A stretch of 64,000 bases of DNA from Patescibacteria group bacterium (GTDB lineage Bacteria > Patescibacteriota > Minisyncoccia > Phycocordibacterales > PALSA-1337): positions 17,548-81,547 of the forward strand of contig JAGWWT010000001.1 of assembly GCA_018970245.1 (NCBI GenBank), in the 5' to 3' direction. The notes under the pieces are model-generated. The model had not been told where the DNA came from, did not search any database, and worked only from the letters and a program-made list of their open reading frames with translations. Positions within the stretch are counted from its first letter, which is position 1, and each line of letters opens with the position of its first letter. The translations under genes were made by a program, and so were the position numbers. Positions 13,790-55,857 of the stretch are shown in pieces.

Positions 13790-14905
13790 TCAGATCGGAG
13801 GCTTGGCAGACTCTCTCTCGAAATCCCTCGGAGGAAGGCGGCGAAGGCTAGCTTCCCGCAACAATGCCGGCACGTCCAGGTTCTTCTTGGCATATTCAGC
13901 GACGGCTTCCTGGCCGCCCTCGATCAGCAATCGGCCGAGGAGCTTCGGCGAACCGTCTTCATGGCTGTCGCCGAAATGGAACTGCAGGGGATCCTGCCAG
14001 CCTGTATGGATAGAGCGCAATGTAGGGCCGCGCCGGTCTCTGAGAGCGAACCAGTATATGCGCTCTGGAAAGCCGTTCAAGACATGCGCGAGAGCGTCTG
14101 CGTAGATGGCGACCTGGATCTCTTCCAATCTATGTTCAGCGATCGAGCCAGGCGCATGCAAGCCTGTGGTCGGGAAGCTCAGCTCGGTCAGCCAGACTCG
14201 GGTGTTCCTGACTGTGTGCGCGACGGATCTCGCCTGGTCGAATAGGCTGCCTGGAAAATCCTGGTCGCTCCATGTCCCGCGCAGGGAATGGAAGCCGATG
14301 GAATCGAAGTAGCCTGCCGCTCCCTTGCTGACTAGGTTGCTCATGAGGGCCAGGTTCGTCTTGTCTACGCCTGCCATGCCCCCGAGCAGGTTCTTGAGGC
14401 CGAGCCGCCTGGCCATGACGCACCCTCCGGTGAGCATCCTGGCCAATATCGAATGCTCGGGATCGCATGACTGGTCATAATCAGTTCCCATGGCCCATTC
14501 ATTCCAGTGCTCGATGAATTCGATCCTGATGCCAGACATCTTGCAGTACTGAGCGACGTCGTATACGAACATCGCGTACATCACCGTGTCTTTCGGCGGG
14601 CCTGTGCACTTTCCATTCATGGACAAGTCAGCGGGCGTGAAGCACAGGCACGGCAATATATCGAAGCCGTCTTGGGCATATCTCTTCAGATACCATTGGA
14701 TGCAGGCCTTTCCTCCGGGCGAAGACCATTCTGCCCACGACACTCCTAGCCTGATGCGTCTCACGCGCCTGGCTTTGAGGTCGTCTATAGTCTGCATCGT
14801 CGACTCTCGATATCCGGCCAGGTCGGCCGATCCGAGCTCGTTCATACAGCTTTCCGGGATCTTTTCCCAGATCACATAGCCGAGGTTCTCCATATTTTCG
14901 CTCAT
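13790..14905 (-). CDS. Glycoside hydrolase, clan GH-A TIM-barrel (paralog 1)
   Basis: From the internal start MSENMENLGYVIWEKIP (AAGAGAAAG precedes the ATG). HWNEW motif at the expected NEP catalytic-acid position. Clearly paralogous to the upstream gene (GVSWAEWSSPGG...PPKD). Confidence 0.55.
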   Translation of the reverse strand: MSENMENLGYVIWEKIPESCMNELGSADLAGYRESTMQTIDDLKARRVRRIRLGVSWAEWSSPGGKACIQWYLKRYAQDGFDILPCLCFTPADLSMNGKCTGPPKDTVMYAMFVYDVAQYCKMSGIRIEFIEHWNEWAMGTDYDQSCDPEHSILARMLTGGCVMARRLGLKNLLGGMAGVDKTNLALMSNLVSKGAAGYFDSIGFHSLRGTWSDQDFPGSLFDQARSVAHTVRNTRVWLTELSFPTTGLHAPGSIAEHRLEEIQVAIYADALAHVLNGFPERIYWFALRDRRGPTLRSIHTGWQDPLQFHFGDSHEDGSPKLLGRLLIEGGQEAVAEYAKKNLDVPALLREASLRRLPPRDFERESAKPPI

Positions 14906-14951
14906 CTTTCTCTTTTTGATCGTTTTGGTAAGGTGCGGCTTGTCTCGTGCG

Positions 14952-16031
14952 CTACAAGCGGTCCGAACTTGAAGACGGTTCCGCGGCCAGATCCTTCCAA
15001 TGATAGAAAAGTGGCTTGCGCCGGCCATCGAGCGTTTCCAGGCCGAAATGATAGGCCGCTTCCTGTCGGCCGCCATTCATGTTCAGCTCGTCGTCTGTCA
15101 TGTTCTCCGGGGGTTGGTCGATCGCCGAGTACCAGATGATCTTATCCGCGCCGGCCTGTCGGCGCGTGTAGTCGAAGAACTTGGTCTGCTCGCGCTCGCC
15201 TCTGCGGCGAGCATCGTCTAGGATCGCTCCGTCATCGACCGTGGCATATCCGGCCTCGGCTATCCAGATCTCGATCCCGCTCTTGGCCAAGCCGGCTTTT
15301 TCCAAGCCGTCGAGATGCGCTCTGGCGGTCATGATCTCGGAAGCCCAGCCGTACCATTTGCGCCGCTGGTTCGTCCAGCTCGGGGAATGGTGGAGGCCGA
15401 CGGCATCCGGCTTGTGCAGCAATCCGTTCGACAGCGATCCGTTCGGCAGCGATCCGTTCGGCAGCGATCCGTTCGGCAGCGATCCGTGCCCTTTCTCCTC
15501 AGATTTTCCGCGGACTGTCGAGCATCGCGCTGCCATCGTCAGCCAAGCAGGATCATATGGAGTGAGCCCACCGAGGACGGCTTTTTTGCCGGCGGCATGC
15601 ACGATGTCGATGGCCGGAATGGCCATCTGGCAGAAGATCGAACCGTCAGGATCGATATCCCAATCCCAGTAAGGCTGCCAATTCGGCTCGTTCCATATCT
15701 GGACCCAGTCGAAGCGGCTTCCGTATCTTTCGATCATCTGGCCAGCGAAGCGGGCATAGGAGAGGATGTCTTTTGGCGGATGAGAAGTCTTGCCGCCTAT
15801 GGCCTGCTCCGGAGGCGTATAGAATAGCGCAGGGATCAGTTTCGGACCGGCTTCTCCGATCCGGTCTACGAAGAAATCGAACCATTCCTGGCCCCCTGGC
15901 CGATCCCAGTCGGCCCAGGAAAATAGGATCCGGAATTCTTTGATCTGGAGCTCTTCGATTGTGGCTGCTGTGCGTTCTACAGCCTGGCGGTCTTCGAATA
16001 TGAACCATTGGCATAGGGCAGGTAGGCGCAT
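14952..16031 (-). CDS. Glycoside hydrolase, clan GH-A TIM-barrel (paralog 2) with a (GSLPN)4 insert
   Basis: Start at MRLPALCQWF (16031). QIWNEPNWQ carries the clan GH-A NEP acid/base motif; FSWADWDRPGGQ and PPKD are shared with paralog 1. Confidence 0.6.
   Translation of the reverse strand: MRLPALCQWFIFEDRQAVERTAATIEELQIKEFRILFSWADWDRPGGQEWFDFFVDRIGEAGPKLIPALFYTPPEQAIGGKTSHPPKDILSYARFAGQMIERYGSRFDWVQIWNEPNWQPYWDWDIDPDGSIFCQMAIPAIDIVHAAGKKAVLGGLTPYDPAWLTMAARCSTVRGKSEEKGHGSLPNGSLPNGSLPNGSLSNGLLHKPDAVGLHHSPSWTNQRRKWYGWASEIMTARAHLDGLEKAGLAKSGIEIWIAEAGYATVDDGAILDDARRRGEREQTKFFDYTRRQAGADKIIWYSAIDQPPENMTDDELNMNGGRQEAAYHFGLETLDGRRKPLFYHWKDLAAEPSSSSDRL
15417..15491 (-). repeat. In-frame 15-nt tandem repeat (about 4.5 units) inside GH paralog 2
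   Basis: cagcgatccgttcgg x3 exact plus degenerate flanking units, encoding GSLPNGSLPNGSLPNGSLSNG. Confidence 0.85.
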
Positions 16032-16204
16032 ATGATTCCTGACGAGGCACCTGAATTGGGAGTTACTAGAGTTATTAACAGAAATAATTTCCACTATTCT
16101 TCTTCCCCCTATTCTTGTCCCAGGTTCATTTCCCATACTTTTCCAACATTCTGGGGAAAACCGCTATATGTGTGTACATATTACCCTTTTTCATTCACGG
16201 AAAT

Positions 16205-16328: not shown

Positions 16329-16441
16329 CTTGAAAACTCGGCGTTATAAAACTCGGCGTTATATTCCGCTCCGCTCCATGTAACGCCTTCGCTCGGACTG
16401 TGTGTAAGCTAGCTTCCACAAGTCCTCGCTCGGCGTTATAA
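16329..16441 (+). promoter_or_regulatory. Three direct repeats of CTCGGCGTTATA with a -10 TATAAT (16436-16441) immediately before a leaderless ATG (16449)
   Basis: ctcggcgttataaa / ctcggcgttatatt / ctcggcgttataat. TTCCAC-N17-TATAAT lies 7 nt before the start codon. Confidence 0.4.
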
Positions 16442-16448
16442 TACCTGC

Positions 16449-16964
16449 ATGTTTTCCGATCCAGCGTCGAACCTAGCCAAGCTGGTCCTATCTGAAGGCA
16501 TGAAAGTTGGGGACCTCGGCGCCGGTTCAGGCTTCTATTCGATCGAAGCGGCCAAGCGCGTCGGTTCCAGCGGCCGCGTCTATGCCATCGATGTCCAGAA
16601 AGACCTGCTGGAACGCGTCCGCAAAGCCGGCTTGGAGCAAGGCCTGCACAACATCGAAGTCATCTGGGGCAATGCCGAAAAGATCGGCGGCACGAAGCTC
16701 AAAGAGGCGCTATTGGACCGCGTCGTCCTTTCGAACGTCCTTTTTCAGGTAGCCAAACCCGACGATCTCGCCCTCGAGATAAAGCGCATCCTCAAGCCGG
16801 GCGGCAAGGTTCTCGTGGTAGATTGGAGCGGAGTGACGCCGCTCTCGCCGAAGAAGATATTCCCGGAGGCGCAAACCAGGACGCTTTTCGAGAAGAACGG
16901 CTTCAAACTCGATCAGTCGTTCGGCGCCGGCGAGCACCATTACGGGCTCGTGTTCATCCGATGA
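16449..16964 (+). CDS. Class I SAM-dependent methyltransferase
   Basis: 171 aa with the VGDLGAGSGFYS motif I and the downstream acidic motif II. Confidence 0.7.
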   Translation: MFSDPASNLAKLVLSEGMKVGDLGAGSGFYSIEAAKRVGSSGRVYAIDVQKDLLERVRKAGLEQGLHNIEVIWGNAEKIGGTKLKEALLDRVVLSNVLFQVAKPDDLALEIKRILKPGGKVLVVDWSGVTPLSPKKIFPEAQTRTLFEKNGFKLDQSFGAGEHHYGLVFIR

Positions 16965-17007: not shown

Positions 17008-18318
17008 ATGACCAAATTCCAGATAATAACCTTAGCCATCTTCGTCGTCTGCATCATCGTAGGCGTGGCGGCATTCGCTCTGTACAAAGGCAGCGGGCCT
17101 TCCACATCTCTGCCGCCGATAACCATTTGGGGCACATTCCCGGCCAGCACCTTCGACCAATACGTGTCGGACATAAACAGCGCCAGCACAAACCAGCTCT
17201 CGATCTCCTACGTCGAGAAGGATCCATCGTCCTTCGCCAACGATTTCGTCAATGCATTGGCCACGGGACAGGGTCCGGACGCGATCCTCATACCAGCCGA
17301 CATGATCCTTCCGGAAGAGAACAAGATCACGCCGGTCCCGTACAGCGCCCTGCCTCAGCGGACATTCATGGACACCTATGTACAGGAAGCCCAGACATAT
17401 CTTACGGCCGATGGCATCCTGGCGGTCCCGTTCACGCTCGATCCTCTGGTCATGTATTGGAACCGCGATATGTTCAATGCCGCTGGTCTGGCCACATATC
17501 CGCGCTATTGGGATGAATTCACAGGCACCGATCTCAATCCCGGCCTTGTCCAGAAGCTCACGGTCAAGGACCAGAATGCGAACATCAGGCAGTCTGCTAT
17601 CGCCATGGGCTCATTCTCGAACATGACCAACGCCAGGGAGGTCCTAGGGTCCCTTCTCATGCAGCTCGGCAACCCGATAACCGCGCCGGGGCAGGGCGGC
17701 GCTCCTGTGAGCGCATTGGGTTCCGATCCCCAGCATCTTTCCATACCCGGATTGCAGTACTTCGCGCAATTCGCCGATCCGGCGAGCACGGCCTATTCCT
17801 GGAATGCCAGCCTGCCGAACGACAAGTCCCAATTCCTGGCCGGCGCTTTGGCCACATATTTCGGCTTCGCTTCGGAGATAGCCGACCTACGCGCCAAGAA
17901 TCCGAACCTGAACTTCGACGTAGCGGCTCTTCCACAGCTCCGTTCGGGCGGCCAGAAGGCCGCTTACGGCAGGATGTATGGGTTCTCGCTGGTGCACACC
18001 TCGGCTAAGCAGAACGAGGCTTTCCAGATCATCTCCATCCTGACTTCTCCGCAGCACATAGCCCAGCTTTCGAAGACCATGTACATCCCGCCGGTCCAGA
18101 CCAGCCTCATCGCCCAGGGCTCATCGGATCCTTACATGACGATATTCGATCAGGAGGCGCTCATAAGCCGGACATGGCTCGATGCCGGACCAGCCGCGTC
18201 TTCGCAGGTATTCAGCTCGATGATAGGCTCTATCGTGAGCGGCCAGAAGCAGCCGGATCAGGCTGTGAGGGACGCCAGCGACCAGTACAATGTCATCTTG
18301 CAACAAGCGCAGCAATGA
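17008..18318 (+). CDS. Membrane-anchored extracellular solute-binding protein (ABC-type, family 1-like)
   Basis: 436 aa with an N-terminal TM anchor, length and composition typical of a sugar-type SBP. No permease or ATPase is nearby. Confidence 0.45.
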   Translation: MTKFQIITLAIFVVCIIVGVAAFALYKGSGPSTSLPPITIWGTFPASTFDQYVSDINSASTNQLSISYVEKDPSSFANDFVNALATGQGPDAILIPADMILPEENKITPVPYSALPQRTFMDTYVQEAQTYLTADGILAVPFTLDPLVMYWNRDMFNAAGLATYPRYWDEFTGTDLNPGLVQKLTVKDQNANIRQSAIAMGSFSNMTNAREVLGSLLMQLGNPITAPGQGGAPVSALGSDPQHLSIPGLQYFAQFADPASTAYSWNASLPNDKSQFLAGALATYFGFASEIADLRAKNPNLNFDVAALPQLRSGGQKAAYGRMYGFSLVHTSAKQNEAFQIISILTSPQHIAQLSKTMYIPPVQTSLIAQGSSDPYMTIFDQEALISRTWLDAGPAASSQVFSSMIGSIVSGQKQPDQAVRDASDQYNVILQQAQQ

Positions 18319-18761
18319 ATAACACCCAGACATTATCAAGCCAGCTTCCTCCTGTCGATGTGAGCAGCTCCGGTTTCAGGCTGACCGTATGCGACGGGCC
18401 GACCCTGCCTCCGGGTCAGAGCTGGGTCACCGCTTACAAGGACAGCTTCCAGGCCACTTACCACCGGCAGTATGTGGCATGCGATTTCAATGGCGCGATG
18501 ATGCAGGTTCAGCACCTCATCGACGTCGCTCTGGTCGCAGGCGTGCTCCTGGCGATCGCCGGCTTCTGCTACGCCGGCTTCCTTTACATCACGCATGGGG
18601 ACAACCCTGGAAAGCGCGACGAGGCCAAGGACATATTCAAAAAGATCTTCGTGGGCTTTATAATAATGCTTGCCGCCTGGTTCGTCGTCTACCAGGTCCT
18701 GGCCTGGCTCACCGGCGCGAATTCCGGGTTCACGTCCCTCTTGGGCAAACCGACACCATGA
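18315..18761 (+). CDS. Small two-TM membrane protein, paralog 1 of 6 (VirB2/TrbC-like topology)
   Basis: 148 aa. Start overlaps the SBP stop (ATGA). C-terminal TM pair with AAWFVVYQVLAWL. Confidence 0.5.
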   Translation: MNNTQTLSSQLPPVDVSSSGFRLTVCDGPTLPPGQSWVTAYKDSFQATYHRQYVACDFNGAMMQVQHLIDVALVAGVLLAIAGFCYAGFLYITHGDNPGKRDEAKDIFKKIFVGFIIMLAAWFVVYQVLAWLTGANSGFTSLLGKPTP

Positions 18762-19339
18762 ATAAATCCATGACATCGTCAAAATCAAATCTGCCGAAGC
18801 TATTGGCTATAGCTGTGGCTCTGCTCCTTATTTCTGCGCCTCTGAATTTCGTCCTGGCTCAGCAAGGTGCTGGCGGAACAGTCTCAGGAACTCCTGGTTC
18901 AGGGGCCGGAGGAACGGTCTCTGGAACTCCTGGTTCAGGTGTAGGCGGCACAGTGTCCGGAAATCCAGGATCTGCTGCCGGTGGCACTGTCAATCCCAAG
19001 GCAACCAGTCAACCCACCTTCACGCTCGTCAATCCGCTGCAAGTCAATTCCATCGGCGGTCTGATCGAGACTTTCGTCGAGATATTCAGCTACATAGCTA
19101 TCCTGATCGCCGTCCTCATGCTCATATGGGTCGGCTTCCAGTACATCACCGCTGCGGCGCAGGGCAATTCCGAGAAGATAAAAAGCCTGCACTCATACCT
19201 TCTGTGGATAGTGGTGGGCGTTGCCATCGTCATCGGCGCGCGCGTCATCGTCCAGATAACCATAAACACCCTATCGGCGACGCATACGGTGAACCAGAAC
19301 GTCATCCAGAGCGCCAATAACGCCCTGCAGGGCAATTGA
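18758..19339 (+). CDS. Small two-TM membrane protein, paralog 2 of 6
   Basis: 193 aa with a signal peptide and three GGTVSGTPGSG repeats, then a TM pair (VLMLIWVGFQYI ... LLWIVVGVAIV). ATGA overlap with paralog 1. Confidence 0.55.
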   Translation: MNKSMTSSKSNLPKLLAIAVALLLISAPLNFVLAQQGAGGTVSGTPGSGAGGTVSGTPGSGVGGTVSGNPGSAAGGTVNPKATSQPTFTLVNPLQVNSIGGLIETFVEIFSYIAILIAVLMLIWVGFQYITAAAQGNSEKIKSLHSYLLWIVVGVAIVIGARVIVQITINTLSATHTVNQNVIQSANNALQGN

Positions 19340-19346
19340 TCGTCAT

Positions 19347-19355
19347 GATATAATA
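19347..19355 (+). promoter_or_regulatory. Extended -10 TGATATAAT, 5 nt before a leaderless ATG at 19361
   Basis: Exact TGnTATAAT consensus. Confidence 0.4.
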
Positions 19356-19360
19356 GATCC

Positions 19361-19657
19361 ATGGGACAGCAGACCTTGCAAGACGTGATCGGGCTAGTAG
19401 CCGGGTATCTCAATATGATCCTCGAGCTGTTGATGGGCCTGGCCGTAGTCGTCTTCGTCTGGTACGTCATAAAATATTTCATCCTCAAGCCGGACACAAA
19501 GCGGTCCGAAGCCGCCCAATATGTCATGTGGAGCGTCATCGGCTTCTTCGTCATACTGTCCGTATGGGGGATAGTGAACATCATGACAGCGACATTCAAT
19601 CTTGGCAGCAACAGCCCTGCATCCTGGTCAGGCGTCCAGGGGCTTTTCCCAAGATGA
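19361..19657 (+). CDS. Small two-TM membrane protein, paralog 3 of 6
   Basis: 98 aa: VVFVWYVIKYFIL ... VILSVWGIVNIM. Confidence 0.6.
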   Translation: MGQQTLQDVIGLVAGYLNMILELLMGLAVVVFVWYVIKYFILKPDTKRSEAAQYVMWSVIGFFVILSVWGIVNIMTATFNLGSNSPASWSGVQGLFPR

Positions 19658-19668
19658 TATAAACGGAC

Positions 19669-20088
19669 ATGTCTTTCCCATTTTTTCCAAATTTCGGAGG
19701 AGGTTCGTCATTCGGTTCGTCATTCGGCGGCGGTGCTGGCTACGGGCCAGGCGGCTATGGCGGCAGCCAGCTCGCTCCCGTTTATGACGCCAATTCGCTG
19801 GCGGTGAGGCTGGCGAGCATCGGAGACGTGGTCATCTATCTCTTGGTCGCTCTCGCCGTCGTCTATATCGTCTGGACCGTCTTCCAGTATTTCGTCAAAG
19901 GCAAAGAAGGCGATGAGAACAGGAAGGAGGCGGGTATGAGGATATTCTGGGCCATTCTAGGCCTGTTCATAATCGTCTCGCTCTGGGGATTGGTCAATAT
20001 CCTCGTAAATACGTTCTGGACTGGGTATAACCAAGCGCCTGCCCAGCAATTCCCGAACGCCAATTTCGTCAGCGGCCCGCAATACTAA
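19669..20088 (+). CDS. Small two-TM membrane protein, paralog 4 of 6
   Basis: 139 aa with a Gly/Ser-rich N-terminus, then VVYIVWTVFQYFVK ... IIVSLWGLVNIL. Confidence 0.6.
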   Translation: MSFPFFPNFGGGSSFGSSFGGGAGYGPGGYGGSQLAPVYDANSLAVRLASIGDVVIYLLVALAVVYIVWTVFQYFVKGKEGDENRKEAGMRIFWAILGLFIIVSLWGLVNILVNTFWTGYNQAPAQQFPNANFVSGPQY

Positions 20089-20173
20089 GCCGAGCAATCC
20101 ACAGCCCGGCTGTATAGACTGGCGTTTTCAGGCTATAATTGGCGCAAGCTTTATAAGATCGATCATAAATCAC

Positions 20174-20563
20174 ATGAAAAAAATCATCTCGCTTTTAGCG
20201 GTGCTCGCCCCGTCCGTAGCCTTGGCTCAGACTGCACCAGTGACTGACGTCAACTCTCTGAGCTCGAAGATCATCGGCATAGGCAACGTAGTCACCTACA
20301 TCCTGGTCGCTTTCGCGGTCATCTACATCGTCTGGATGGTCATCCAGGCCATCTTGAAGTCTGGCTCGGAAGACGCAAGCAAATACCGCATGAATGTCAT
20401 CTGGGGCATCGTCGGCCTATTCATCATCGTCTCCATCTGGGGCTTGGTGAACATCGTGGCCAATACCTTCAGGACGACGCCGACCACTCAGTCCATCCCT
20501 AACTTCGGACAGAATACTCAGAACGGAGGCATCCCGGCCAACCAGATCCCGCAGGTTCAGTAG
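20174..20563 (+). CDS. Small two-TM membrane protein, paralog 5 of 6
   Basis: 129 aa with a signal peptide, then VIYIVWMVIQAILK ... IIVSIWGLVNIV. Confidence 0.6.
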   Translation: MKKIISLLAVLAPSVALAQTAPVTDVNSLSSKIIGIGNVVTYILVAFAVIYIVWMVIQAILKSGSEDASKYRMNVIWGIVGLFIIVSIWGLVNIVANTFRTTPTTQSIPNFGQNTQNGGIPANQIPQVQ

Positions 20564-20586
20564 GCCTGTCCGCGCGATCATCGCCG

Positions 20587-20880
20587 ATGAACTTCTCAGC
20601 TCTCATACCTGAGGCATACGCCAGCGTCGACATGACAGCTTTCGGCAACGTCGTCGATCCGATCATCACCAACGTCGTCTATCCGGTCCTCGAGCTACTG
20701 TTCGGACTGGCGATCTTGATCTTCGTCTGGGGAGTCCTCCAGCTGGTCTTAGGTGGGGATGACGAGGAAAAGAGGGAACGTGGCAAGAGCACCATCAAGT
20801 GGGGAACTGTCGGGCTCTTCATAATGGTCTCGGCCTGGGGCATCATCTATCTCGTATCGAATACGGTCAAAACGCTGTAA
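20587..20880 (+). CDS. Small two-TM membrane protein, paralog 6 of 6
   Basis: 97 aa: ILIFVWGVLQLVLG ... IMVSAWGIIYLV. Confidence 0.55.
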   Translation: MNFSALIPEAYASVDMTAFGNVVDPIITNVVYPVLELLFGLAILIFVWGVLQLVLGGDDEEKRERGKSTIKWGTVGLFIMVSAWGIIYLVSNTVKTL

Positions 20881-20936
20881 GAACGCCAGTAAATCCGCCG
20901 CGATGCGCCGACGCGCGCGGCCCATATAAAAGAAAG

Positions 20937-20980
20937 CAAGCCGCATAGGATTTCTCCCTTGCGGCTTGTCTGATTTTCTC
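20937..20980 (+). terminator. Rho-independent terminator (bidirectional)
   Basis: CAAGCCGCAtaggatttctcccTTGCGGCTTG followed by TCTGATTTTCTC, with an A-rich stretch on the other side. Confidence 0.55.
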
Positions 20981-20982
20981 TG

Positions 20983-21447
20983 TCAAGAACTAGGTTGTTC
21001 GAAGTGGAACACGAATGGGCAGCTTTGGACTGCCTGTCCGGGGGTGACTCTGTAGTCGATCCCCGTGAGCTCCGTGTTCCCTGATCTGCTCTGGAAGTGG
21101 ATGAATACAGGCCTGAGCGCGTCTACAGGCTGCATATCCCTCACTTCGCAGATGCCGTTGCTGTAGCGTGCCCGGACTTGCCACCGGACACCTCTGCCTG
21201 CGTTGACGTTCGGGTTGCCCCATATATTCAGACGCAAGTTTAGCTCGTTCGGATCATACCAGACAGTCCCGACGGTTACCGTTTTGATCGAGGGAACCAT
21301 GGTCGACGCGACCGACGCCGCTGCAGCGGGGCTAGATGCTTTCGCATTAGCTATCGCCGCCGATGCGTGGAGGATCACCCCCACGATGACGATTATTCCA
21401 AAACCGACTCCCGCGACCCACAACAATCTTTTCTGCGTTGCTGTCAT
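20983..21447 (-). CDS. Hypothetical membrane-anchored exported protein
   Basis: Start at MTATQKRLLWVAGVGFGIIVIV; AAGAAGGGATAGAG precedes the ATG. Confidence 0.45.
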   Translation of the reverse strand: MTATQKRLLWVAGVGFGIIVIVGVILHASAAIANAKASSPAAAASVASTMVPSIKTVTVGTVWYDPNELNLRLNIWGNPNVNAGRGVRWQVRARYSNGICEVRDMQPVDALRPVFIHFQSRSGNTELTGIDYRVTPGQAVQSCPFVFHFEQPSS

Positions 21448-21463
21448 AATCTCTATCCCTTCT

Positions 21464-22438
21464 TTAAGATTTTTTTTGTTGATTTCCGCCTCCGCCGACA
21501 TTCACGTTGGCATTGGGGAATACTACTGTTCCGACTCGTGACTGGCCTCCGGTCAGGATCTCAAAACGGTTGTCTTTGCCGTCGCGGATCCGTCGAAGGG
21601 TATTGACCCTGTCCAAGGATTCATCCATTGAGAGGATCTCGCCCCTAGCTTCAGCCGCTGCTTTCAGCTCTTTCGCAGCTTCCAGGTCGGATCGATACTC
21701 GATGATCCTAGCCTCTTTCTGCGTATAGCTGTCGAGGACATCGTCTGGCAAGGAGAACGTGAGCTGGACTCGGTCGATCTCTATACCGAATGTCCTCTCT
21801 TTGAAAAGGTCAGCCCGCAACTTGCGGGTGCCATCGTTCTTCTCGGAGATCGCGTCTTCGACGCAATCTGACAGCTCCTGGCTTCGCTGCATTATGGAGT
21901 TGGCCATCCGAGTCCGAGTGAAGCGGCGAGCGACATTGTCGACTACGCCCTCCATCTCTTCCTGGATGTATTTCCAGCGAGTCGTGTGATCTTTTCCGTT
22001 GCTGACATATATGTCAGTTTCGTTCCTGTCCACACGAGCTCTGATACGCACCCTCCCTTCTAGAGGGATCTTGTCTTTCGACAGGATGGTCACCGGGAAT
22101 TCCATCTCTACCCAGGTGTATTCGATGCTGATGCTCGAGATCCATATGAGAGGCCAATTGCACAGGAAGACGGTGCCGTTCACCGTCGGCGTTTTCCCGC
22201 GTGATTTGTAGATCCTGTCTCTCACCGTGATCGCGCCTATGGTAGGTGGATCAGCGGGGAAGGTTTTGTACCCTGTGACCAGAATCGTCAAGCCGAGCGC
22301 TATCATAGCCAGGCCGACGATGAGATGTATCCAGCTCGGGCCCAAGAATACGAACACCAGGCCCAAGGAGATCAGGAATAGGATGGCCAGCATTATCATA
22401 CCGGTCACCAAATTGCTGAATATTCCAGAATCTTTCAT
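21464..22438 (-). CDS. SPFH/Band-7 (stomatin/prohibitin-like) domain membrane protein
   Basis: 324 aa with two N-terminal TM helices, then a Band-7-like domain with a coiled-coil tail. Confidence 0.6.
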   Translation of the reverse strand: MKDSGIFSNLVTGMIMLAILFLISLGLVFVFLGPSWIHLIVGLAMIALGLTILVTGYKTFPADPPTIGAITVRDRIYKSRGKTPTVNGTVFLCNWPLIWISSISIEYTWVEMEFPVTILSKDKIPLEGRVRIRARVDRNETDIYVSNGKDHTTRWKYIQEEMEGVVDNVARRFTRTRMANSIMQRSQELSDCVEDAISEKNDGTRKLRADLFKERTFGIEIDRVQLTFSLPDDVLDSYTQKEARIIEYRSDLEAAKELKAAAEARGEILSMDESLDRVNTLRRIRDGKDNRFEILTGGQSRVGTVVFPNANVNVGGGGNQQKKS

Positions 22439-22639: not shown

Positions 22640-23671
22640 CTAACGACGGTGGTAACGACCGCAGCCGTACCCGTACCTGTGTCCGATACAGGAACCATAC
22701 GGGTTAGCGCGACAGTAGCCACGGTTGCCATATCCGTAGCCATAGCCGTAACATGGACCACCTACACAGACGCTCACGCCAGCGTACCCTGGATAGAAGC
22801 TGCCACTATATCCAGGATAATACGTCGGTGCCTGGACGTAAGTCGGCGGCGGAACGAGGGGCGGCGTGACTACTTGTGGCGGTGCTGCTGGTGGCGGTGC
22901 GACCGTTACGGGCGGGGCAGTTGGAACTGTCGCCTGCGGCGGCGCGACCGTATTCGTCAGCACCGATTGAGACGGCGCATAGATCGGCGGCGGCGGGATC
23001 ATGACTGCCGGCGGCGCGACCGTCTTGTTCGTTGACCCGAAGTTGTTGATGATCAACGGACTGTTGATCACGTTCGAGCCTACGATCGTCACCGACTGGT
23101 TGACGCTCAGGCCACCGACGTTGACGCCGGAATCCTGAACCAACCCGCTCGGCACCTCGACCTCTTCGGTCGGAGTGGGCATCGTGGTCTTCACATGCTC
23201 CGGTCCGGAAGTCACCTTCACAGAGCGATTCAGCGAAGCCGTGCCGCTCGCTTTCCGCGCCGCTAGCGTGACAGAAGCATAAATGCCCCAACCGATCAAC
23301 CCGACGACGACTAGCGCCAGAAGAACCATCGCTGCCTTCTCGTAGTCCTTCAAACCAGTCTTCGTGGGCACGGAAGTGGCCGACGTCGTCGCTGCCGTAG
23401 ACGACCGACCGCCGGCTCGCGTCGTTACGCGAGTAGTACGGGTAGTCGTTTTCGTCACAGCGGGAGCCGGTTTCGCGGCCTTAGCCGCTGGAGCCGGTTT
23501 TGTGGCCTTAGCGGCGGCCGGAGCCGCCTTAGGCTTTGCCGCTTTCGGAGCGGCTGCCGGTGCCGGCTTCGAAGCCGGAGCTGTACCGCCAGCGGCTGGC
23601 GCCGGAGGCGGGGGGAGTGCTGCTGTCGGGGGAGGCGTGAAACCGCCTGCCGCTGCATTTTTCTTTGCCAT
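22640..23671 (-). CDS. Pro/Ala-rich membrane protein with a Gly-Tyr-Cys-rich C-terminus
   Basis: Start MAKKNAAAGG, preceded by AAGAAAGAGGAAAACT. One TM helix, long PPxAP repeats, C-terminal GYGYGYGNRGYC...GCGRYHRR. Confidence 0.55.
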   Translation of the reverse strand: MAKKNAAAGGFTPPPTAALPPPPAPAAGGTAPASKPAPAAAPKAAKPKAAPAAAKATKPAPAAKAAKPAPAVTKTTTRTTRVTTRAGGRSSTAATTSATSVPTKTGLKDYEKAAMVLLALVVVGLIGWGIYASVTLAARKASGTASLNRSVKVTSGPEHVKTTMPTPTEEVEVPSGLVQDSGVNVGGLSVNQSVTIVGSNVINSPLIINNFGSTNKTVAPPAVMIPPPPIYAPSQSVLTNTVAPPQATVPTAPPVTVAPPPAAPPQVVTPPLVPPPTYVQAPTYYPGYSGSFYPGYAGVSVCVGGPCYGYGYGYGNRGYCRANPYGSCIGHRYGYGCGRYHRR

Positions 23672-23789
23672 AGTTTTCCTCTTTCTTGTTGCGGTTTGTC
23701 TATTTGTTGCGGTTTCAGGCACAAGCCCTAACCATGTTTATTTTCAAATTCCTGACTGGCATATTACAACAGATTGTCAGTCCAGGGCC

Positions 23790-23951: not shown

Positions 23952-25544
23952 ATGAAAGCAAAGGAAAGCAGGTCCGCGGAAGGAACGGCAGCGGCGATCG
24001 GCACGGTGGTCATCAGCAAAGTCTTAAGGTTCCTGATCCATATGCGCCCGCATCTGGACGAGATCCTAGGTCGCCTGTTGGTCGTCCTTTACGGGAAGCG
24101 ACAGTTCGTGGACGCTGAGCACGCTCAGGTGCTGTTCGTGGAAGGCGATCCTGCCGGAAATGACGCGACATTTGATCGCGACGGCGACATCCCGATCGGC
24201 ATCTCCAACTCTCGTTTCAACGAGCATGTAGGTCCTGAAGGTCGTATGGAAGAAGAATGTGCCTCGACGCTAGTCGCCAAATTTCTTCATGTCGAAGAGA
24301 ATGAGGAGCTCACGGATCTTCTGGCGAGCACCCTTTTCTACGACACGCATGGCGAATGCCCGAACACTCACATCGCCGAGATGATCAAGGCTGCGACCCG
24401 AGTCGATCCTGACTCCAGCCTCAAGATCATGAATCGCGCTACCACGATGCTGGAAGCGATGATCGTCCGCAAGAAATACGGCATCGCAGCCATATCCGGC
24501 GAAATGACATTGGCCGAGATATTCAAGGCCTGGAAGGACAAGCAGTCCGACGAGATCGCGGCTAATCCGGATGCCTTTGCGCACCTGGAGCGGTCGATCG
24601 AAAAGAGCATGGCGCGGTCCGAAGAGGTCTGCGAGCTCTCCTACATCGTGACGAGCTTGTTCAGGCGCCAGTTCTACACAGACGACCAGATCCTCGATAT
24701 GATCTTCGAGACCCTGGATGATATGTGGTATGACCAGCGGCGATTCTGGGCGAAGCTAGAGGAGATCAGGGAGGAGGACCGGTTCATACCGATCCAAGCC
24801 CTTCTGAAGTCCGGATTCGGCGGCGATGAAAAGGAAGCGACGCTGAAGCTGTACGCATGCTATGACGATGACATGCTGACCCAAAAGGCAGCCCGCTTCG
24901 CTGGCGCTGATATCGTCGTGCAGGTATCATCGTCATATAACGTGCAGATCTTCACCAAGAGCAGGCCTGGCTTGAGCCTGGCCAATCCGGTGAAAATGAT
25001 CCGTTGGATGGAGCTGCCATTCGAGCTGAGGGATAAGGTGAGCTGGCAAGAGCTCTCTATGCCCGGGACTATCAGAGGCGTCGAGCACTGGTATTACTTC
25101 CGCAAGGGGCAGATGTTCTTCAATGGCAGCCTGACCAAGAGGGCTCGGCCAGCTCTGGGTCCGGGACGCATGTCGCTTCAGGCGATCGTCGAGGTCTGTC
25201 AGCATGCATTCCACCCAGACGGAGTCAGGCTCTGGTGCCGGAAGCGGGGTATCGCCATGAACGGCAAGCCTCGCTGGAACAGGCTGATCGCCAAGCCGCG
25301 CAACGGCCGCGATCAGAGGCCTGTAAAGCACGCAGAACAACCGGCTGCCGCATCGAAAGGCGCGGTCCAAGCAGGCGATGACATGCAGAGCGCGTTCGCC
25401 AAGGCCGAAAAAGCCATAGAAGAAGCCAAAAAGCCCATTGTCAGCTCAAAAAGCGTGACGAAGCGGGCCGCTTCTTCCAAAAAGCCGAAAAGCAAAACCG
25501 GGCGTAAGCCGAGCAAAAAAGCGGCAGAAGCCCAAAAAAGCTGA
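23952..25544 (+). CDS. Hypothetical large protein with a Lys-rich, histone-H1-like C-terminal tail
   Basis: 530 aa with no recognisable catalytic motifs. The last ~60 aa are KKPIVSSKSVTKRAASSKKPKSKTGRKPSKK. The true start may be internal. Confidence 0.45.
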   Translation: MKAKESRSAEGTAAAIGTVVISKVLRFLIHMRPHLDEILGRLLVVLYGKRQFVDAEHAQVLFVEGDPAGNDATFDRDGDIPIGISNSRFNEHVGPEGRMEEECASTLVAKFLHVEENEELTDLLASTLFYDTHGECPNTHIAEMIKAATRVDPDSSLKIMNRATTMLEAMIVRKKYGIAAISGEMTLAEIFKAWKDKQSDEIAANPDAFAHLERSIEKSMARSEEVCELSYIVTSLFRRQFYTDDQILDMIFETLDDMWYDQRRFWAKLEEIREEDRFIPIQALLKSGFGGDEKEATLKLYACYDDDMLTQKAARFAGADIVVQVSSSYNVQIFTKSRPGLSLANPVKMIRWMELPFELRDKVSWQELSMPGTIRGVEHWYYFRKGQMFFNGSLTKRARPALGPGRMSLQAIVEVCQHAFHPDGVRLWCRKRGIAMNGKPRWNRLIAKPRNGRDQRPVKHAEQPAAASKGAVQAGDDMQSAFAKAEKAIEEAKKPIVSSKSVTKRAASSKKPKSKTGRKPSKKAAEAQKS

Positions 25545-25684: not shown

Positions 25685-26668
25685 TCATTTTAGGGATTTG
25701 GTCCCGTTCCGGACCTTTCTTTTGGAGACGGGCAGAATTTTCCTTTTCGTCGTTATCGCGTCGGATTGACCGCTTCTATTCCGGACAGCGCCTCGACGAA
25801 AGGTTTTACGGCCATTGCTCCTTGCCGACGCTACGAGATGCTGGGCTTTGAGGAAGTCGAGATCTTTAAGCGGCCCAGACATGGCTTCGCGTAGCTCGAT
25901 CAGGCATGCCCTCGTGCTGTCATGGAATGACTGGCGGAGCTCGTCGAGCTCTCGCGATGCGCGCTCTTGGATTTCCGCGATCGTACGCTCGGCGTCATGC
26001 TCCTTGTCGGAAAGGCGGTCGGATGCCTCTCCAAGCTTCGCTCGATAGGCGGCGATCATAGCCTCGATGCTCTCGGAATGAGACCGTATCGAGGACATCA
26101 GGCTGCCGGCCTTCGAGACGGATTCTTGCAAGAATGCGAGCTGGCGGGCGATCCTGGCCTCGCAGTCTTCCGCCGAGCGCGCGGCGAGAGCGATCTTGTC
26201 CAATCTCTCCGACTGAGCCGTGATCGCCTTGTCGGTGTCCCGGACTCTGTCGCCGAGCTTCTCCACCAGCTCGAGCGCGGACTCGAATCTGCGGAGATTG
26301 GCGTTCCTAGCCTGCTCCTCAGAGAGGCAGAACGTCGCGGAGCGCCTCTTCGTGTCGTCCACGAACTCGCCGTGGACAGGGGAGCATGACAGCCGGTAAT
26401 TTCCAGCCGCGAAGATCGCGCCGGGCCGGTATCTGAGGATGAAAAGGGAGATCTCGATGAAATCCCCGACAGGCGCGCGTCTGACTTTCTGGAGCGGCGC
26501 GACCGTCTCAGATGTGTCCACCCTGACGATGGAGATGTTATGCCATTCGCTGCCGTTCTTTCCCATCTTCAAGGAAAGATGATCGGCGTCGACCTCCATA
26601 GGGATCAGCCGGCCGTTGTTGTGAGGCTTATCATAAGAGATCATAGGTCCTCCGTTTTGCGGTTCCAT
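25685..26668 (-). CDS. Hypothetical protein with an N-terminal globular domain and long coiled coil
   Basis: 327-aa ORF with a coherent codon pattern. The C-terminal two-thirds are heptad-rich. Confidence 0.4.
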   Translation of the reverse strand: MEPQNGGPMISYDKPHNNGRLIPMEVDADHLSLKMGKNGSEWHNISIVRVDTSETVAPLQKVRRAPVGDFIEISLFILRYRPGAIFAAGNYRLSCSPVHGEFVDDTKRRSATFCLSEEQARNANLRRFESALELVEKLGDRVRDTDKAITAQSERLDKIALAARSAEDCEARIARQLAFLQESVSKAGSLMSSIRSHSESIEAMIAAYRAKLGEASDRLSDKEHDAERTIAEIQERASRELDELRQSFHDSTRACLIELREAMSGPLKDLDFLKAQHLVASARSNGRKTFRRGAVRNRSGQSDAITTKRKILPVSKRKVRNGTKSLK

Positions 26669-55049: not shown

Positions 55050-55055
55050 GTGTGC

Positions 55056-55259
55056 ATGAGCAAGCATCAAGCCATCAGGGCCATTCGTGTCGAGATCGAG
55101 AGGCTCAATCAGGAGATCGACCTCAAGATCATAAGAGGCGCTTCGTACAGGCGCGAAGCTCTCCGGCACAAGACCCTGATGGCGCAGCTCGCTCGTTTGT
55201 CGCCGCGCAGGAAGTATTTCGCCGGGTTCGGCAATTTCGTAAGGATGTTCCTATTTTGA
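55056..55259 (+). CDS. Small basic protein (67 aa) cotranscribed with lexA
   Basis: MSKHQAIRAIRVEIERLNQEIDLKIIRGASYRREALRHKTLMAQLARL, possibly DUF465/YdcH-like. Its stop lies 2 nt before the lexA start. Confidence 0.4.
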   Translation: MSKHQAIRAIRVEIERLNQEIDLKIIRGASYRREALRHKTLMAQLARLSPRRKYFAGFGNFVRMFLF

Positions 55260-55261
55260 AT

Positions 55262-55825: not shown

Positions 55826-55835
55826 ATATCAAAGA

Positions 55836-55857
55836 TTAAAAATTAAAAACAACAACC
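55836..55857. repeat. Short heptamer-like array (GATTAAA/AATTAAA)
   Basis: aagattaaaaattaaaaacaac, immediately upstream of the VOC gene start. Confidence 0.5.

What the first reader, a model, noticed from the sequence alone, without database searches (positions are those of the whole stretch)
17008..20880. Tandem array of six divergent paralogs encoding small two-TM proteins with a WG(L/I)VN helix, co-operonic with an orphan solute-binding protein
Six consecutive same-strand genes code for 97-193 aa proteins, at 18315-18761, 18758-19339, 19361-19657, 19669-20088, 20174-20563 and 20587-20880. All share one architecture: a variable N-terminus (a signal peptide in some, Gly/Ser-rich repeats in others), then TM1 ending (V/I)(Y/F)(I/V)VWxVxQ(Y)(F/I), a short charged loop, and TM2 (I/V)xWG(I/T)VGLFI(I/M)VS(I/L/A)WG(L/I)VN(I)(L/V). 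The first overlaps the stop of a membrane-anchored SBP gene in ATGA, and two further junctions are ATGA or 12-nt spacers, so the whole block looks like one operon. It has its own extended -10 promoters and a strong terminator at 20937-20980. The topology (leader, hydrophobic helix, short loop, hydrophobic helix, about 100 aa) matches VirB2/TrbC-type conjugative or T4SS pilins, but no VirB4, VirD4 or VirB6 genes are in the window. Sixfold paralog expansion with heavy N-terminal diversification suggests a surface-exposed, possibly antigenically varying or cell-cell contact structure. No known family is named by motif here, so this may be an undescribed membrane or pilus-like system.
Basis: partly seen in the sequence, partly recalled or inferred. 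Interest (0 to 1): 0.8.

Follow-up and report, generated by a model that had tools for sequence, protein, structure and literature searches.

The report
Patescibacterial VirB2-like pilin gene array
The six small membrane-protein genes are a tandem array of type IV secretion pilin-like genes, a known feature of ultra-small Patescibacteria, but here they sit in a widely conserved operon with a sugar-type binding protein that several lineages have fused to the first pilin, which hints at what the structure does.

Summary
Six same-strand ORFs (18315-20880) each encode a two-helix membrane hairpin, follow a solute-binding protein (SBP) gene, and end at a strong terminator.

They are not an unnamed family. 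All six score above the Pfam gathering threshold for PF18895 (T4SS_pilin), and paralog 2 also passes PF04956 (TrbC/VirB2). The organism is a Patescibacteria (Paceibacteria-type) MAG. Tandem arrays of divergent VirB2-like pilins in this phylum are published (Wang 2023; Quinonero-Coronel 2025).

What I could not find described:
- The module SAM-methyltransferase, SBP, then 5-7 pilins recurs in 56 of 57 species-level genomes with enough sequence. It is still present at 35% SBP identity.
- The paralogs form five position-specific orthogroups in fixed order. Orthologs share 45-56% identity, paralogs 21-42%. This argues against antigenic variation.
- The SBP is fused in frame to pilin 1 in at least four lineages.
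- A conserved TATAAT precedes the last two pilins.
- No VirB4, VirB6 or ABC permease lies nearby.

Best reading: a heteromeric pilus-like surface structure that displays an SBP, probably worked by a T4SS encoded elsewhere. This is a new variant of a known kind, of moderate interest.

The parts
16415..16442 (+). Promoter-like site (TCCACA, 16 nt spacer, TATAAT) 7 nt upstream of the methyltransferase ATG. It is the candidate operon promoter.
   Evidence: Consensus scan, 10 of 12 matches. Such hits are not enriched over shuffles, so this is unverified.
16449..16964 (+). Small class I SAM-dependent methyltransferase (171 aa, no signal peptide). It is the first gene of the conserved module.
   Evidence: Pfam Methyltransf_31/11/25. 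A homologue lies directly upstream of the SBP in 73 of 74 related loci with enough upstream DNA.
17008..18318 (+). Solute-binding protein (436 aa) of the carbohydrate type. It has one N-terminal hydrophobic segment (residues 6-24), which could be an anchor or a cleavable signal ending AFA|LY.
   Evidence: Pfam SBP_bac_8 at 57 bits. Nearest solved relatives are the manno-oligosaccharide, maltose and acarbose SBPs 4r9f, 3jzj and 8art. It is 100% identical to an NCBI Patescibacteria MAG protein. Hydropathy.
18315..18761 (+). Pilin orthogroup 1 (148 aa). It has an extracellular N-domain with two conserved Cys (FxLxxCDGP ... YVxCDF) followed by the two-helix hairpin. It lacks the signal peptide its orthologues carry, and its start overlaps the SBP stop (ATGA).
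   Evidence: PF18895 at 42.8 bits. It best-hits array position 1 in 74 of 74 other loci. Ortholog N-termini and SBP fusions.
18758..19339 (+). Pilin orthogroup 2 (193 aa; alternative start at 18770). It has a Sec signal peptide, Gly/Ser/Thr-rich repeats, an NPLxVNS motif, the hairpin and a long C-tail.
   Evidence: PF04956 TrbC at 30.7 bits and PF18895 at 29.9 bits, both above gathering. Orthologues also pass both models. Position-2 orthology.
19361..19657 (+). Pilin orthogroup 3 (98 aa) with a short N-terminus and a WGIVN helix. A TGATATAAT sequence lies at 19346-19354, just upstream.
   Evidence: PF18895 at 36.0 bits. Position-3 orthology. Sequence.
19669..20088 (+). Pilin orthogroup 4/5, copy A (139 aa) with a Gly-rich N-terminus and no signal peptide. 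It is a lineage-variable duplicate of the next gene (55% identity in the core).
   Evidence: PF18895 at 40.9 bits. It best-hits position 4 of five-gene arrays.
20134..20139 (+). Conserved internal -10-like TATAAT, about 40 nt before the orthogroup-5 start, inside the only long spacer of the array (85 nt).
   Evidence: The same spacer (median 84-85 nt) carries G(G/T)TATAAT about 40 nt upstream of the start in 37 of 50 and 15 of 21 orthologous gaps.
20174..20563 (+). Pilin orthogroup 4/5, copy B (129 aa). It has a canonical signal peptide (ends ALA|QT), an ITDVNSL motif, the hairpin with WGLVNI, and a disordered tail. It is a candidate abundant ('major') subunit.
   Evidence: PF18895 at 41.0 bits. 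AF2 model with pLDDT 75.6. 167 homologues were returned; all 120 listed are PF18895. Conserved upstream TATAAT.
20587..20880 (+). Pilin orthogroup 6 (97 aa). It is the shortest member and always the last gene of the array.
   Evidence: PF18895 at 53.2 bits, the best of the six. It best-hits the last position in other loci.
20936..20979 (+). Intrinsic terminator: a 10-bp G+C-rich stem with a U-rich tail, closing the operon.
   Evidence: RNA fold at -23.3 kcal/mol, z = -5.1, with 0 of 200 shuffles as stable. The next genes are on the opposite strand.

Best explanation
The block is the pilin operon of a Patescibacteria (Paceibacteria-type) type IV secretion-like apparatus. It runs methyltransferase, SBP, then six VirB2-like pilin genes that belong to five ancient, non-interchangeable orthogroups.

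**Shown.**
- Family membership in PF18895.
- Two-helix hairpins with a Lys/Arg-bearing loop between the helices.
- A module conserved across many genomes in fixed gene order.
- Recurrent in-frame SBP-pilin 1 fusions.

**Inferred mechanism.**
- The pilins insert into the membrane with both ends outside.
- They are drawn from the membrane pool by a VirB4-type machine encoded elsewhere in the genome.
- They assemble into one heteromeric pilus-like structure. The last two genes, which have their own conserved promoter-like element, would supply the bulk subunits. Orthogroups 1-3 would be low-copy specialised subunits.
- Pilin 1 carries a disulfide-type extracellular domain that holds the carbohydrate-type SBP. 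The link is non-covalent here and covalent in the fused lineages.
- The structure therefore displays a ligand-binding module that either recognises a host surface glycan or captures a host-derived solute.
- The role of the methyltransferase is unknown. It may modify the pilins.
For: **Family and fold.**
- All six ORFs pass the PF18895 gathering score, and paralog 2 also passes PF04956. Orthogroup-2 orthologues pass both models.
- All six give sub-threshold hits to the Mycoplasma ICE pilin-like family NF045849.
- The hairpin topology shows (two TM-like helices, Lys/Arg in the loop; AF2 model).

**Organism.** A Patescibacteria MAG.

**Published precedent.**
- Tandem VirB2-like arrays with about 25% identity, and an essential six-pilin array.
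- T4SS pilins are among the most highly expressed genes of unknown function in related organisms.

**Module conservation.**
- 56 of 57 loci with at least 3 kb downstream of the SBP carry 5-7 pilin ORFs immediately after it.
- The methyltransferase lies directly upstream in 73 of 74 loci.
- The module is still intact at 35% SBP identity.

**Fixed orthogroups.** Each window paralog best-hits the same array position elsewhere. Ortholog identity is 45-56% against 21-42% between paralogs.

**SBP-pilin 1 fusions.**
- L035 with P0071, L037 with P0241, the clade L060/L062/L076, and the distant P0245.
- The window's pilin 1 has lost its signal peptide and abuts the SBP stop codon.

**Other support.**
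- Conserved internal TATAAT before orthogroup 5.
- A T4CP-like ATPase sits directly upstream of the module in L014. By contig-length match it appears to share contigs with the SBP in other genomes; in one sample the two lie on separate contigs.
- Paceibacteria and Taylorbacteria genomes are mostly VirB4-positive in Table S1 of PMC12102498.
Against: - No VirB4, VirB6, VirB3 or VirB8 gene lies in the 64-kb window or within 10 kb of the module in about 80 related loci. Dependence on a T4SS is therefore inferred from family membership and clade-level data only.
- I could not show that this genome has a VirB4.
- Fold searches cannot tell a two-helix hairpin from unrelated hairpins. A profile search against PDB sequences found nothing.
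- No pilus has been seen for any of these proteins.
- In the fused proteins the SBP keeps its own N-terminal hydrophobic segment. Unless that segment is cleaved, the fusion would be held in the membrane at both ends, which fits a membrane complex better than a distal pilus subunit.
- Four of the six window proteins lack a canonical signal peptide.
Confidence: 0.55

Rival explanations
1. The five hairpin proteins never form a pilus. They stay in the membrane as a heteromeric 10-12-helix complex that works directly with the SBP as a T4SS-independent uptake or signalling device. In this reading the pilin-family proteins have been co-opted as a channel or docking platform.
For: - The SBP has no ABC permease or ATPase within the window or within 10 kb in four annotated contexts.
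- The fixed set and order of five distinct subunits looks like a multi-subunit complex.
- The SBP-pilin 1 fusions keep the SBP's N-terminal hydrophobic segment.
- The module is not linked to T4SS machinery.
Against: - The family is homologous to TrbC/VirB2 pilins.
- In the one genetically tested relative, the pilins lie inside an essential T4SS cluster.
- The operon encodes no energising component.
- Orthogroups 2 and 5 have cleavable signal peptides and exposed tails, as pilins do.
Confidence: 0.2
2. The SBP is an ordinary receptor of an ABC importer encoded elsewhere. It sits next to the pilin array only through inherited synteny (gyrA, methyltransferase, SBP). The pilins serve the T4SS independently of it.
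For: - Membrane-tethered SBPs are standard for ABC importers in monoderms (established knowledge).
- The SBP is a typical SBP_bac_8/SBP_bac_1 protein related to sugar SBPs.
- Much of the neighbourhood is syntenic housekeeping.
Against: - In-frame SBP-pilin 1 fusions arose in at least four separate lineages, and one is retained across three species.
- Stop and start codons overlap in the window, and SBP-to-pilin gaps are small in related loci.
- The linkage persists down to 35% SBP identity while the downstream neighbours change.
Confidence: 0.15
3. One reading: a recently expanded, antigenically or phase-variable family of surface proteins used for immune or host evasion.
For: - Paralogs are very divergent and their N-termini differ.
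- N-terminal regions of orthogroups 1 and 2 vary in length between species, 87-396 aa and 93-270 aa.
- The literature raises this idea by analogy with Bartonella and Anaplasma.
Against: - Each paralog has a one-to-one ortholog at the same array position in dozens of species, and orthologs are more alike than paralogs.
- There is no sign of gene conversion or shufflable cassettes.
- An independent assembly (L003) has identical DNA over the aligned stretch covering paralog 2.
- No tandem-repeat instability was found beyond two short repeats.
Confidence: 0.05
4. The genes encode unrelated small membrane proteins such as holins, bacteriocin or immunity proteins, or defence-system components.
For: The proteins are small and have two TM helices. 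Weak sub-threshold Pfam noise includes a holin family for paralog 6 (E = 0.63).
Against: - PHROGs gave only one marginal hit, to a family of unknown function.
- PADLOC gave no hits for the pilins.
- PF18895 is the only family above threshold for every member.
- The context is chromosomal housekeeping, not a prophage.
Confidence: 0.02

Closest known systems
Essential pilin array of the Ca. Southlakia epibionticum ML1 T4SS (SEML1_0014-0019; Wang et al. 2023, PMC10633639)
   Same: Six tandem, sequence-divergent PF18895 genes, some also hitting PF04956, in a monoderm Patescibacteria chromosome. The proteins are of similar size.
   Different: In Southlakia the array lies inside the T4SS cluster, next to VirB4-, VirB6- and PrgI-like genes, and no SBP or methyltransferase is reported there. 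Here the array is unlinked to any T4SS machine gene and is fixed behind a methyltransferase and an SBP. Orthology between the two arrays was not tested.
'VirB2 arrays' of Patescibacteria (Quinonero-Coronel et al. 2025, PMC12102498)
   Same: 2-11 tandem pilin genes detected with PF04956 and PF18895, mean identity about 25%, on chromosomes. The window array fits that definition.
   Different: That survey was centred on virB4 neighbourhoods (within 20 CDS either side; its supplementary figure scores arrays near virB4) and found arrays most abundant in Microgenomatia and Saccharimonadia. It does not mention an SBP, fusions or position-specific orthogroups. It proposes antigenic or host-range variation, which the fixed orthogroups found here do not favour.
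VirB2/TrbC/TraA conjugative pilins of Gram-negative T4SSs (PF04956)
   Same: A leader, two hydrophobic helices and a short charged loop, with both ends outside. There is detectable profile similarity for orthogroup 2.
   Different: Canonical systems use one major pilin plus VirB5 and are encoded with VirB3-B11. Here there are five distinct pilin types, no VirB5, a monoderm host, and no adjacent machinery. No structural match to solved pilins could be demonstrated.
VirB5-type minor pilin or tip adhesin, and the minor-pilin sets of type II secretion and type IV pili (analogy from established knowledge)
   Same: The idea that a few low-copy, specialised subunits in fixed operon order prime or cap a filament built from an abundant subunit and carry the binding function.
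   Different: There is no sequence or fold relationship. The binding module here would be an SBP fold attached to a VirB2-like hairpin, which I did not find described for any T4SS.
Mycoplasma ICE 'Mbov_0395 family pilin-like conjugal transfer protein' (NCBIfam NF045849)
   Same: All six paralogs give their best NCBIfam hit to this small pilin-like protein of monoderm conjugative elements (20-34.5 bits).
   Different: All scores are below the 40-bit cut-off, so this is not membership. Those proteins are ICE-borne single genes.
Carbohydrate ABC-transporter SBPs (e.g. MnBP1 4r9f, GacH, MalE)
   Same: SBP_bac_8/SBP_bac_1 domain, and the nearest solved sequences.
   Different: No permease or ATPase genes are nearby, and the C-terminus is fused to a pilin in several lineages. 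The ligand is unknown, and the AF2 model was too poor to use.

Membership tests
Pfam PF18895 T4SS_pilin | Whole-protein score at or above the curated gathering score (26.6 bits) | tested here: met
   Scores of 42.8, 29.9, 36.0, 40.9, 41.0 and 53.2 bits for the six ORFs. The precomputed Pfam on the public gene calls agrees.
Pfam PF04956 TrbC/VirB2 pilin | Score at or above gathering (27.9 bits) | tested here: inconclusive
   Met only by paralog 2 (30.7 bits) and its orthologues (32.1 and 30.0 bits). The other five paralogs give no hit.
VirB2-type T4SS pilin (functional class) | Cleavable N-terminal leader or signal peptide | tested here: inconclusive
   A canonical signal peptide is present only in paralogs 2 and 5. 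Orthogroup-1 orthologues elsewhere have one, but the window copy does not. No dedicated signal-peptide predictor was available.
VirB2-type T4SS pilin (functional class) | Two hydrophobic helices joined by a short charged loop (hairpin with both termini on the same side) | tested here: met
   Two TM-like windows in each protein. In the five parsed loops, 2-5 Lys/Arg in 16-22 residues; the paralog 3 loop was not parsed. The AF2 model shows helices 26-61 and 68-98.
VirB2-type T4SS pilin (functional class) | Encoded with, or dependent on, VirB4/VirB6-type machinery | tested here: not met
   None found in the 64-kb window or within 10 kb either side in 81 related loci. The one exception is a T4CP-like ATPase adjacent in L014. 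Presence elsewhere in this genome could not be examined.
VirB2-type T4SS pilin (functional class) | Three-dimensional similarity to solved conjugative pilins | tested here: inconclusive
VirB2-type T4SS pilin (functional class) | Polymerises into an extracellular filament | not testable with these tools
   Needs microscopy, biochemistry or multimer modelling.
Patescibacteria 'VirB2 array' (Quinonero-Coronel 2025) | Two or more tandem genes hitting PF04956 or PF18895, with low mutual identity | tested here: met
   Six tandem hits. Pairwise core identity is 21-55%.
Patescibacteria 'VirB2 array' (Quinonero-Coronel 2025) | Located near virB4 (within about 20 CDS), as for the arrays mapped in that study | tested here: not met
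   No VirB4-like ORF lies about 17 kb upstream or about 43 kb downstream of the array.
ABC-importer solute-binding protein | SBP domain | tested here: met
   SBP_bac_8 at 57 bits. Orthologues also hit SBP_bac_1. PDB relatives are sugar SBPs.
ABC-importer solute-binding protein | Cognate permease and ATPase genes in the same locus | tested here: not met
   None in the window or in the annotated contexts L001, L004, L086 and L090.
NCBIfam NF045849 Mbov_0395 pilin-like conjugal transfer protein | Score at or above the cut-off (40 bits) | tested here: not met
   Scores of 20.0-34.5 bits for the six paralogs.
Phage holin, bacteriocin or defence small membrane proteins | Match to PHROGs or PADLOC models | tested here: not met
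   No PADLOC hit. One marginal PHROG hit of unknown function, E = 0.008.

The most novel reading that the evidence does not exclude
The conserved methyltransferase, SBP and five-pilin operon, together with the recurrent covalent fusion of the SBP to pilin 1, would mean that many Paceibacteria build a pilin-based surface organelle whose working end is a solute-binding-protein fold. That organelle would be either a T4SS pilus that recognises host glycans or captures host-derived nutrients, or a VirB4-independent SBP-dependent membrane device assembled from pilin-family hairpins. Either would be an unreported coupling of the SBP and VirB2 folds. It would also be concrete genomic support for the speculation that Patescibacteria T4SS pili serve uptake from the host.
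Probability: 0.3. Interest if true: 0.75.

Novelty: new variant of a known kind. Interest (0 to 1): 0.45.

Why it matters
Patescibacteria make up a large share of bacterial diversity and depend on host cells. In the one tractable species their T4SS and its pilin array are essential, yet nobody knows what the pilins do.

This locus adds three usable leads:
- A deep Paceibacteria clade keeps the pilins as five distinct, position-fixed subunits. That points to one composite structure, not a set of variable antigens.
- A sugar-type binding protein is genetically welded to the first pilin. This names a candidate ligand-recognition component and a concrete protein-protein interaction to test.
- A conserved internal promoter-like element marks the likely bulk subunits.

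If the SBP-pilin coupling is functional, it would connect the T4SS pilus with host recognition or nutrient capture. The finding as first written, an undescribed family, is not new.

Tried and rejected
- **AFDB50 library.** Unavailable.
- **Profile of the six paralogs against PDB sequences.** Only spurious GPCR helices.
- **AF2 model of the SBP.** Built from 23 close homologues, it gave pLDDT 51.8. It was too poor to use, so no ligand inference from structure.
- **Holin, bacteriocin or defence idea.** PHROGs and PADLOC negative.
- **Strain-level variation or repeat instability in the Gly-rich N-terminus of paralog 2.** L003 is 100% identical at the DNA level. The different public gene length is only a gene-calling difference. 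TRF finds two short repeats only.
- **Programmed frameshift joining the SBP to pilin 1 in the window.** The pilin frame is -1 relative to the SBP frame, but there is no slippery heptamer at CAG-CAA-TGA. Rejected as unsupported.
- **Search for VirB4.** I clustered all ORFs of at least 450 aa in the flanks of 81 loci and scanned representatives. Only a T4CP-like ATPase in L014 turned up. Its own neighbourhood in another genome is not a T4SS cluster.
- **Assembly look-up.** The window's assembly accessions (GCA_028865675 and GCA_028866085) are not found in Table S1 of PMC12102498. The stored file is truncated.
- **Downstream neighbours.** The 172-aa TM protein, the SPFH protein and the Pro-rich protein are not conserved with the module, so I excluded them from it.

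Full report
**1. The observation**

The six ORFs are present exactly where stated, all on the + strand.
- The SBP stop overlaps the first ORF's start (ATGA, 18315-18318).
- A second ATGA lies at 18758-18761, although the public gene call starts paralog 2 at 18770.
- The remaining spacers are 21, 11, 85 and 23 nt.
- A hairpin at 20936-20969 followed by a U-rich tail folds at -23.3 kcal/mol, z = -5.1. The next genes are on the opposite strand.

Each product has two TM-like helices. In the five loops the scan parsed (16-22 residues), 2-5 residues are Lys/Arg; the paralog 3 loop was not parsed. Paralogs 2 and 5 also have a canonical signal peptide. An AlphaFold2 model of paralog 5 (pLDDT 75.6) shows a signal helix, helices 26-61 and 68-98, and a disordered tail.

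- The exact WG(L/I)VN motif occurs only in paralogs 3-5.
- Promoter-like hits are not enriched over shuffles.

**2. What the proteins are**

[quoted passage not shown] Paralog 2 also passes PF04956 TrbC/VirB2. All six give their best, though sub-threshold, NCBIfam hit to the Mycoplasma ICE pilin-like conjugal transfer family. PHROGs and PADLOC give nothing relevant.

The upstream gene is an SBP_bac_8 protein. Its nearest solved relatives are manno-oligosaccharide, maltose and acarbose binding proteins. The gene before that is a small class I SAM methyltransferase.

The SBP is 100% identical to a protein of an NCBI 'Patescibacteria group bacterium' MAG. Its homologues are all from Paceibacterota, Parcubacteria or Taylorbacteria. 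Public precomputed annotation already tags these six genes as PF18895, and NCBI names some homologues 'pilin'.

The rest of the window is chromosomal housekeeping: GyrA, SMC, MreBC, two PBP2-type proteins, aminoacyl-tRNA synthetases, Mur ligase, DnaB, RecR, a LexA-like protein and DinB. It has no recognisable VirB4, VirD4, VirB6 or ABC permease.

**3. What is already known**

- Wang et al. 2023 (PMC10633639) found an essential T4SS cluster in Ca. [quoted passage not shown] Their tables show six PF18895 genes, SEML1_0014-0019.
- Quinonero-Coronel et al. 2025 (PMC12102498) report VirB2-like pilins in 1,948 Patescibacteria assemblies. They found 441 arrays of 2-11 pilin genes with mean identity 25%, and suggest antigenic or host-range variation.
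- A 2025 review speculates that the pilus might act as a conduit for uptake from the host.
- T4SS pilins were among the most highly expressed genes of unknown function in Patescibacteria enrichments.

So the family and the array phenomenon are known.

**4. What the comparative data add**

I fetched 80 loci from species-representative genomes using an SBP alignment, added one more from a look-up, called ORFs, and searched them with an HMM built from the six paralogs.

*Module conservation.*
- Of 57 loci with at least 3 kb downstream of the SBP, 37 carry five pilin-domain ORFs immediately after it, 18 carry six, one carries seven and one carries three.
- The methyltransferase is directly upstream in 73 of 74 loci.
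- GyrA ends within 1.5 kb upstream in 33 of 48 loci.
- The genes downstream of the array are not conserved.
- A representative at only 35% SBP identity still has GyrA, methyltransferase, SBP and six T4SS_pilin genes.
- The SBP family has 958 representatives (50%-identity clusters) at E <= 1e-30.

*Position-specific orthogroups.*
- Each window paralog finds its best match at the same array position in the other genomes: paralog 1 in 74 of 74 loci, paralog 2 in 70 of 71, and similarly for the rest.
- Paralogs 4 and 5 both map to the single fourth gene of five-gene arrays. Paralog 6 maps to the last gene.
- Core identity between orthologs is 45-56%, against 21-42% between paralogs. The exception is 55% for the 4/5 pair.
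- Each orthogroup has its own signature:
  - Orthogroup 1: signal peptide, variable linker, FxLxxCDGP ... YVPCDF with two conserved Cys.
  - Orthogroup 2: signal peptide, low-complexity region, NPLKVNS and a long tail.
  - Orthogroups 3-5: WGLVN helix.
  - Orthogroup 6: the shortest.
- This is an old, fixed five-component set with one recurrently duplicated member. It is not a recently diversifying family.
- N-terminal length does vary between species for orthogroups 1 and 2, including a homologous extra N-terminal region of roughly 200-300 aa with no Pfam hit in L023 and L090. That fits surface exposure.

*SBP-pilin 1 fusions.*
- In L035, L037, L060, L062 and L076 the SBP ORF runs in frame into pilin 1.
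- Independent database proteins show the same fusion: P0071 (JGI), P0241, and the distant P0245 (Logan).
- By SBP similarity these fall in at least four lineages. One is a three-species clade that has kept the fusion.
- The fused pilin part lacks a signal peptide.
- The window's own pilin 1 (and that of L010) also lacks the signal peptide present in most orthologues. It begins at the equivalent of the mature N-terminus, right at the SBP stop codon.
- The fusion is topologically coherent only if the pilin N-terminus is extracytoplasmic, which is the VirB2 topology.
- Recurrent fusion is strong evidence of a physical partnership between the SBP and pilin 1.

*Internal promoter-like element.*
- Gaps inside the array are short (medians 5, 16 and 8 nt), except for the gap before the orthogroup-5 gene (median 84-85 nt).
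- That gap carries G(G/T)TATAAT about 40 nt upstream of the start codon in 37 of 50 and 15 of 21 loci. In the window it is at 20134-20139.
- I read this as a conserved internal promoter that boosts the last two genes, which are therefore candidates for the abundant subunits. This is an inference.

*Link to T4SS machinery.*
- The link is weak at the locus level. Among 81 loci only L014 has a T4SS-type gene adjacent: a 922-aa T4CP-like ATPase 108 nt upstream of the methyltransferase.
- That ATPase family is highly conserved in Patescibacteria.
- By matching contig lengths, it appears to share contigs with the SBP in several genomes. In one sample the two lie on separate contigs.
- At clade level, Taylorbacteria and Paceibacteria genomes are mostly VirB4-positive in Table S1 of PMC12102498.
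- I could not check the window's own genome.

**5. Mechanism**

*Shown:* family membership, hairpin topology, operon structure, a fixed five-orthogroup composition, and recurrent SBP-pilin 1 fusion.

*Inferred:* the pilins insert with both ends outside. A VirB4-type machine encoded elsewhere extracts them and assembles one heteromeric pilus-like structure. Orthogroups 5 and 6 form the bulk and orthogroups 1-3 are specialised low-copy subunits. Pilin 1 displays the SBP as a glycan-recognition or solute-capture module. I put about 0.55 on this overall. Pilin-family membership alone is about 0.95.

*Main rival (0.2):* a membrane-resident heteromeric complex working with the orphan SBP, independent of a T4SS. 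Two things favour it: the lack of linked machinery, and the retention of the SBP's N-terminal hydrophobic segment in the fusions.

*Other rivals:* pure synteny without a functional link (0.15) is hard to reconcile with the fusions. Antigenic variation (0.05) and holin-like proteins (0.02) are essentially excluded.

**6. Novelty and verdict**

As written, the finding describes a known family and a known kind of array. Three features appear in none of the papers I could search: the module of methyltransferase, SBP and five pilin orthogroups conserved across many genomes and unlinked to virB4; the SBP-pilin fusions; and the fixed orthogroup order. These make it a new variant of a known kind, with moderate interest (0.45). 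Its main value is as a testable lead to the function of Patescibacteria pilins.

Noticed in passing
window 13790-16136 (- strand): Two tandem paralogous genes (public and 359 aa; 30% identity over 156 aa, E = 2e-24) have no Pfam hit. They carry a WNE(P/W) motif reminiscent of clan GH-A glycosidases, and one has a (GSLPN)x4 repeat. They are inserted between gyrA and the methyltransferase in this lineage only; homologues appear in 1 of 81 related loci.
   Followed up: partly
L014 126-2894 (+), directly upstream of the methyltransferase-SBP-pilin module: A 922-aa T4CP-like ATPase (DUF8128 plus TrwB_AAD_bind/T4SS-DNA_transf; SXT_TraD 57 bits, sub-threshold). It belongs to a very conserved Patescibacteria family (3403 hits, 59-78% identity among the 120 listed). 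In another genome its neighbours are a 582-aa unknown protein, a DnaJ-like protein and a Ser/Thr kinase, not a T4SS cluster.
   Followed up: partly
L023 3429-4619 and L090 11295-12554: Orthogroup-1 pilins of 396 and 419 aa carry a homologous extra N-terminal region of roughly 200-300 aa (motif TGxGTPPxYxYGFQ) with no Pfam match. This is a second kind of extracellular domain grafted onto pilin 1, besides the SBP.
   Followed up: partly
L015, L055, L059, L064, L083 (about 1 kb upstream of the methyltransferase, opposite strand): One extra ORF matching the pilin HMM lies on the minus strand upstream of the module in five loci.
   Followed up: no
window 22640-23722 (- strand): A 360-aa protein with no Pfam hit. 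It has an Ala/Pro/Lys-rich N-terminal half, one TM segment, a Pro-rich region and a C-terminal Gly/Tyr-rich tail (GYGYGYGNRGY). It is probably an envelope protein and is not conserved next to the module.
   Followed up: no
window 20983-22438 (- strand): Convergent with the array are a 172-aa single-TM protein with no family and a 324-aa SPFH/Band 7 protein. The Band 7 homologue is present in only 10 related loci.
   Followed up: partly
window 27492-28394 (+): A NusB domain fused to a NUDIX hydrolase domain in one 300-aa protein, followed by RNase III. The same fusion is seen in related genomes (L004, L090).
   Followed up: no
window 55052-57527 (+): A LexA-like S24 peptidase gene directly followed by a DinB/ImpB-family polymerase, resembling an SOS-type cassette in a reduced genome.
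   Followed up: no
window 23952-25544 (+), 25685-26668 (-), 46081-47013 (+), 48129-49127 (+), 51472-52755 (+): Five sizeable ORFs (310-530 aa) have no Pfam family at E <= 0.001.
   Followed up: no
Supplementary table of PMC10633639 (Southlakia epibionticum), SEML1_0634: [quoted passage not shown] It is another essential SBP lacking an adjacent transporter in a Patescibacterium.
   Followed up: no
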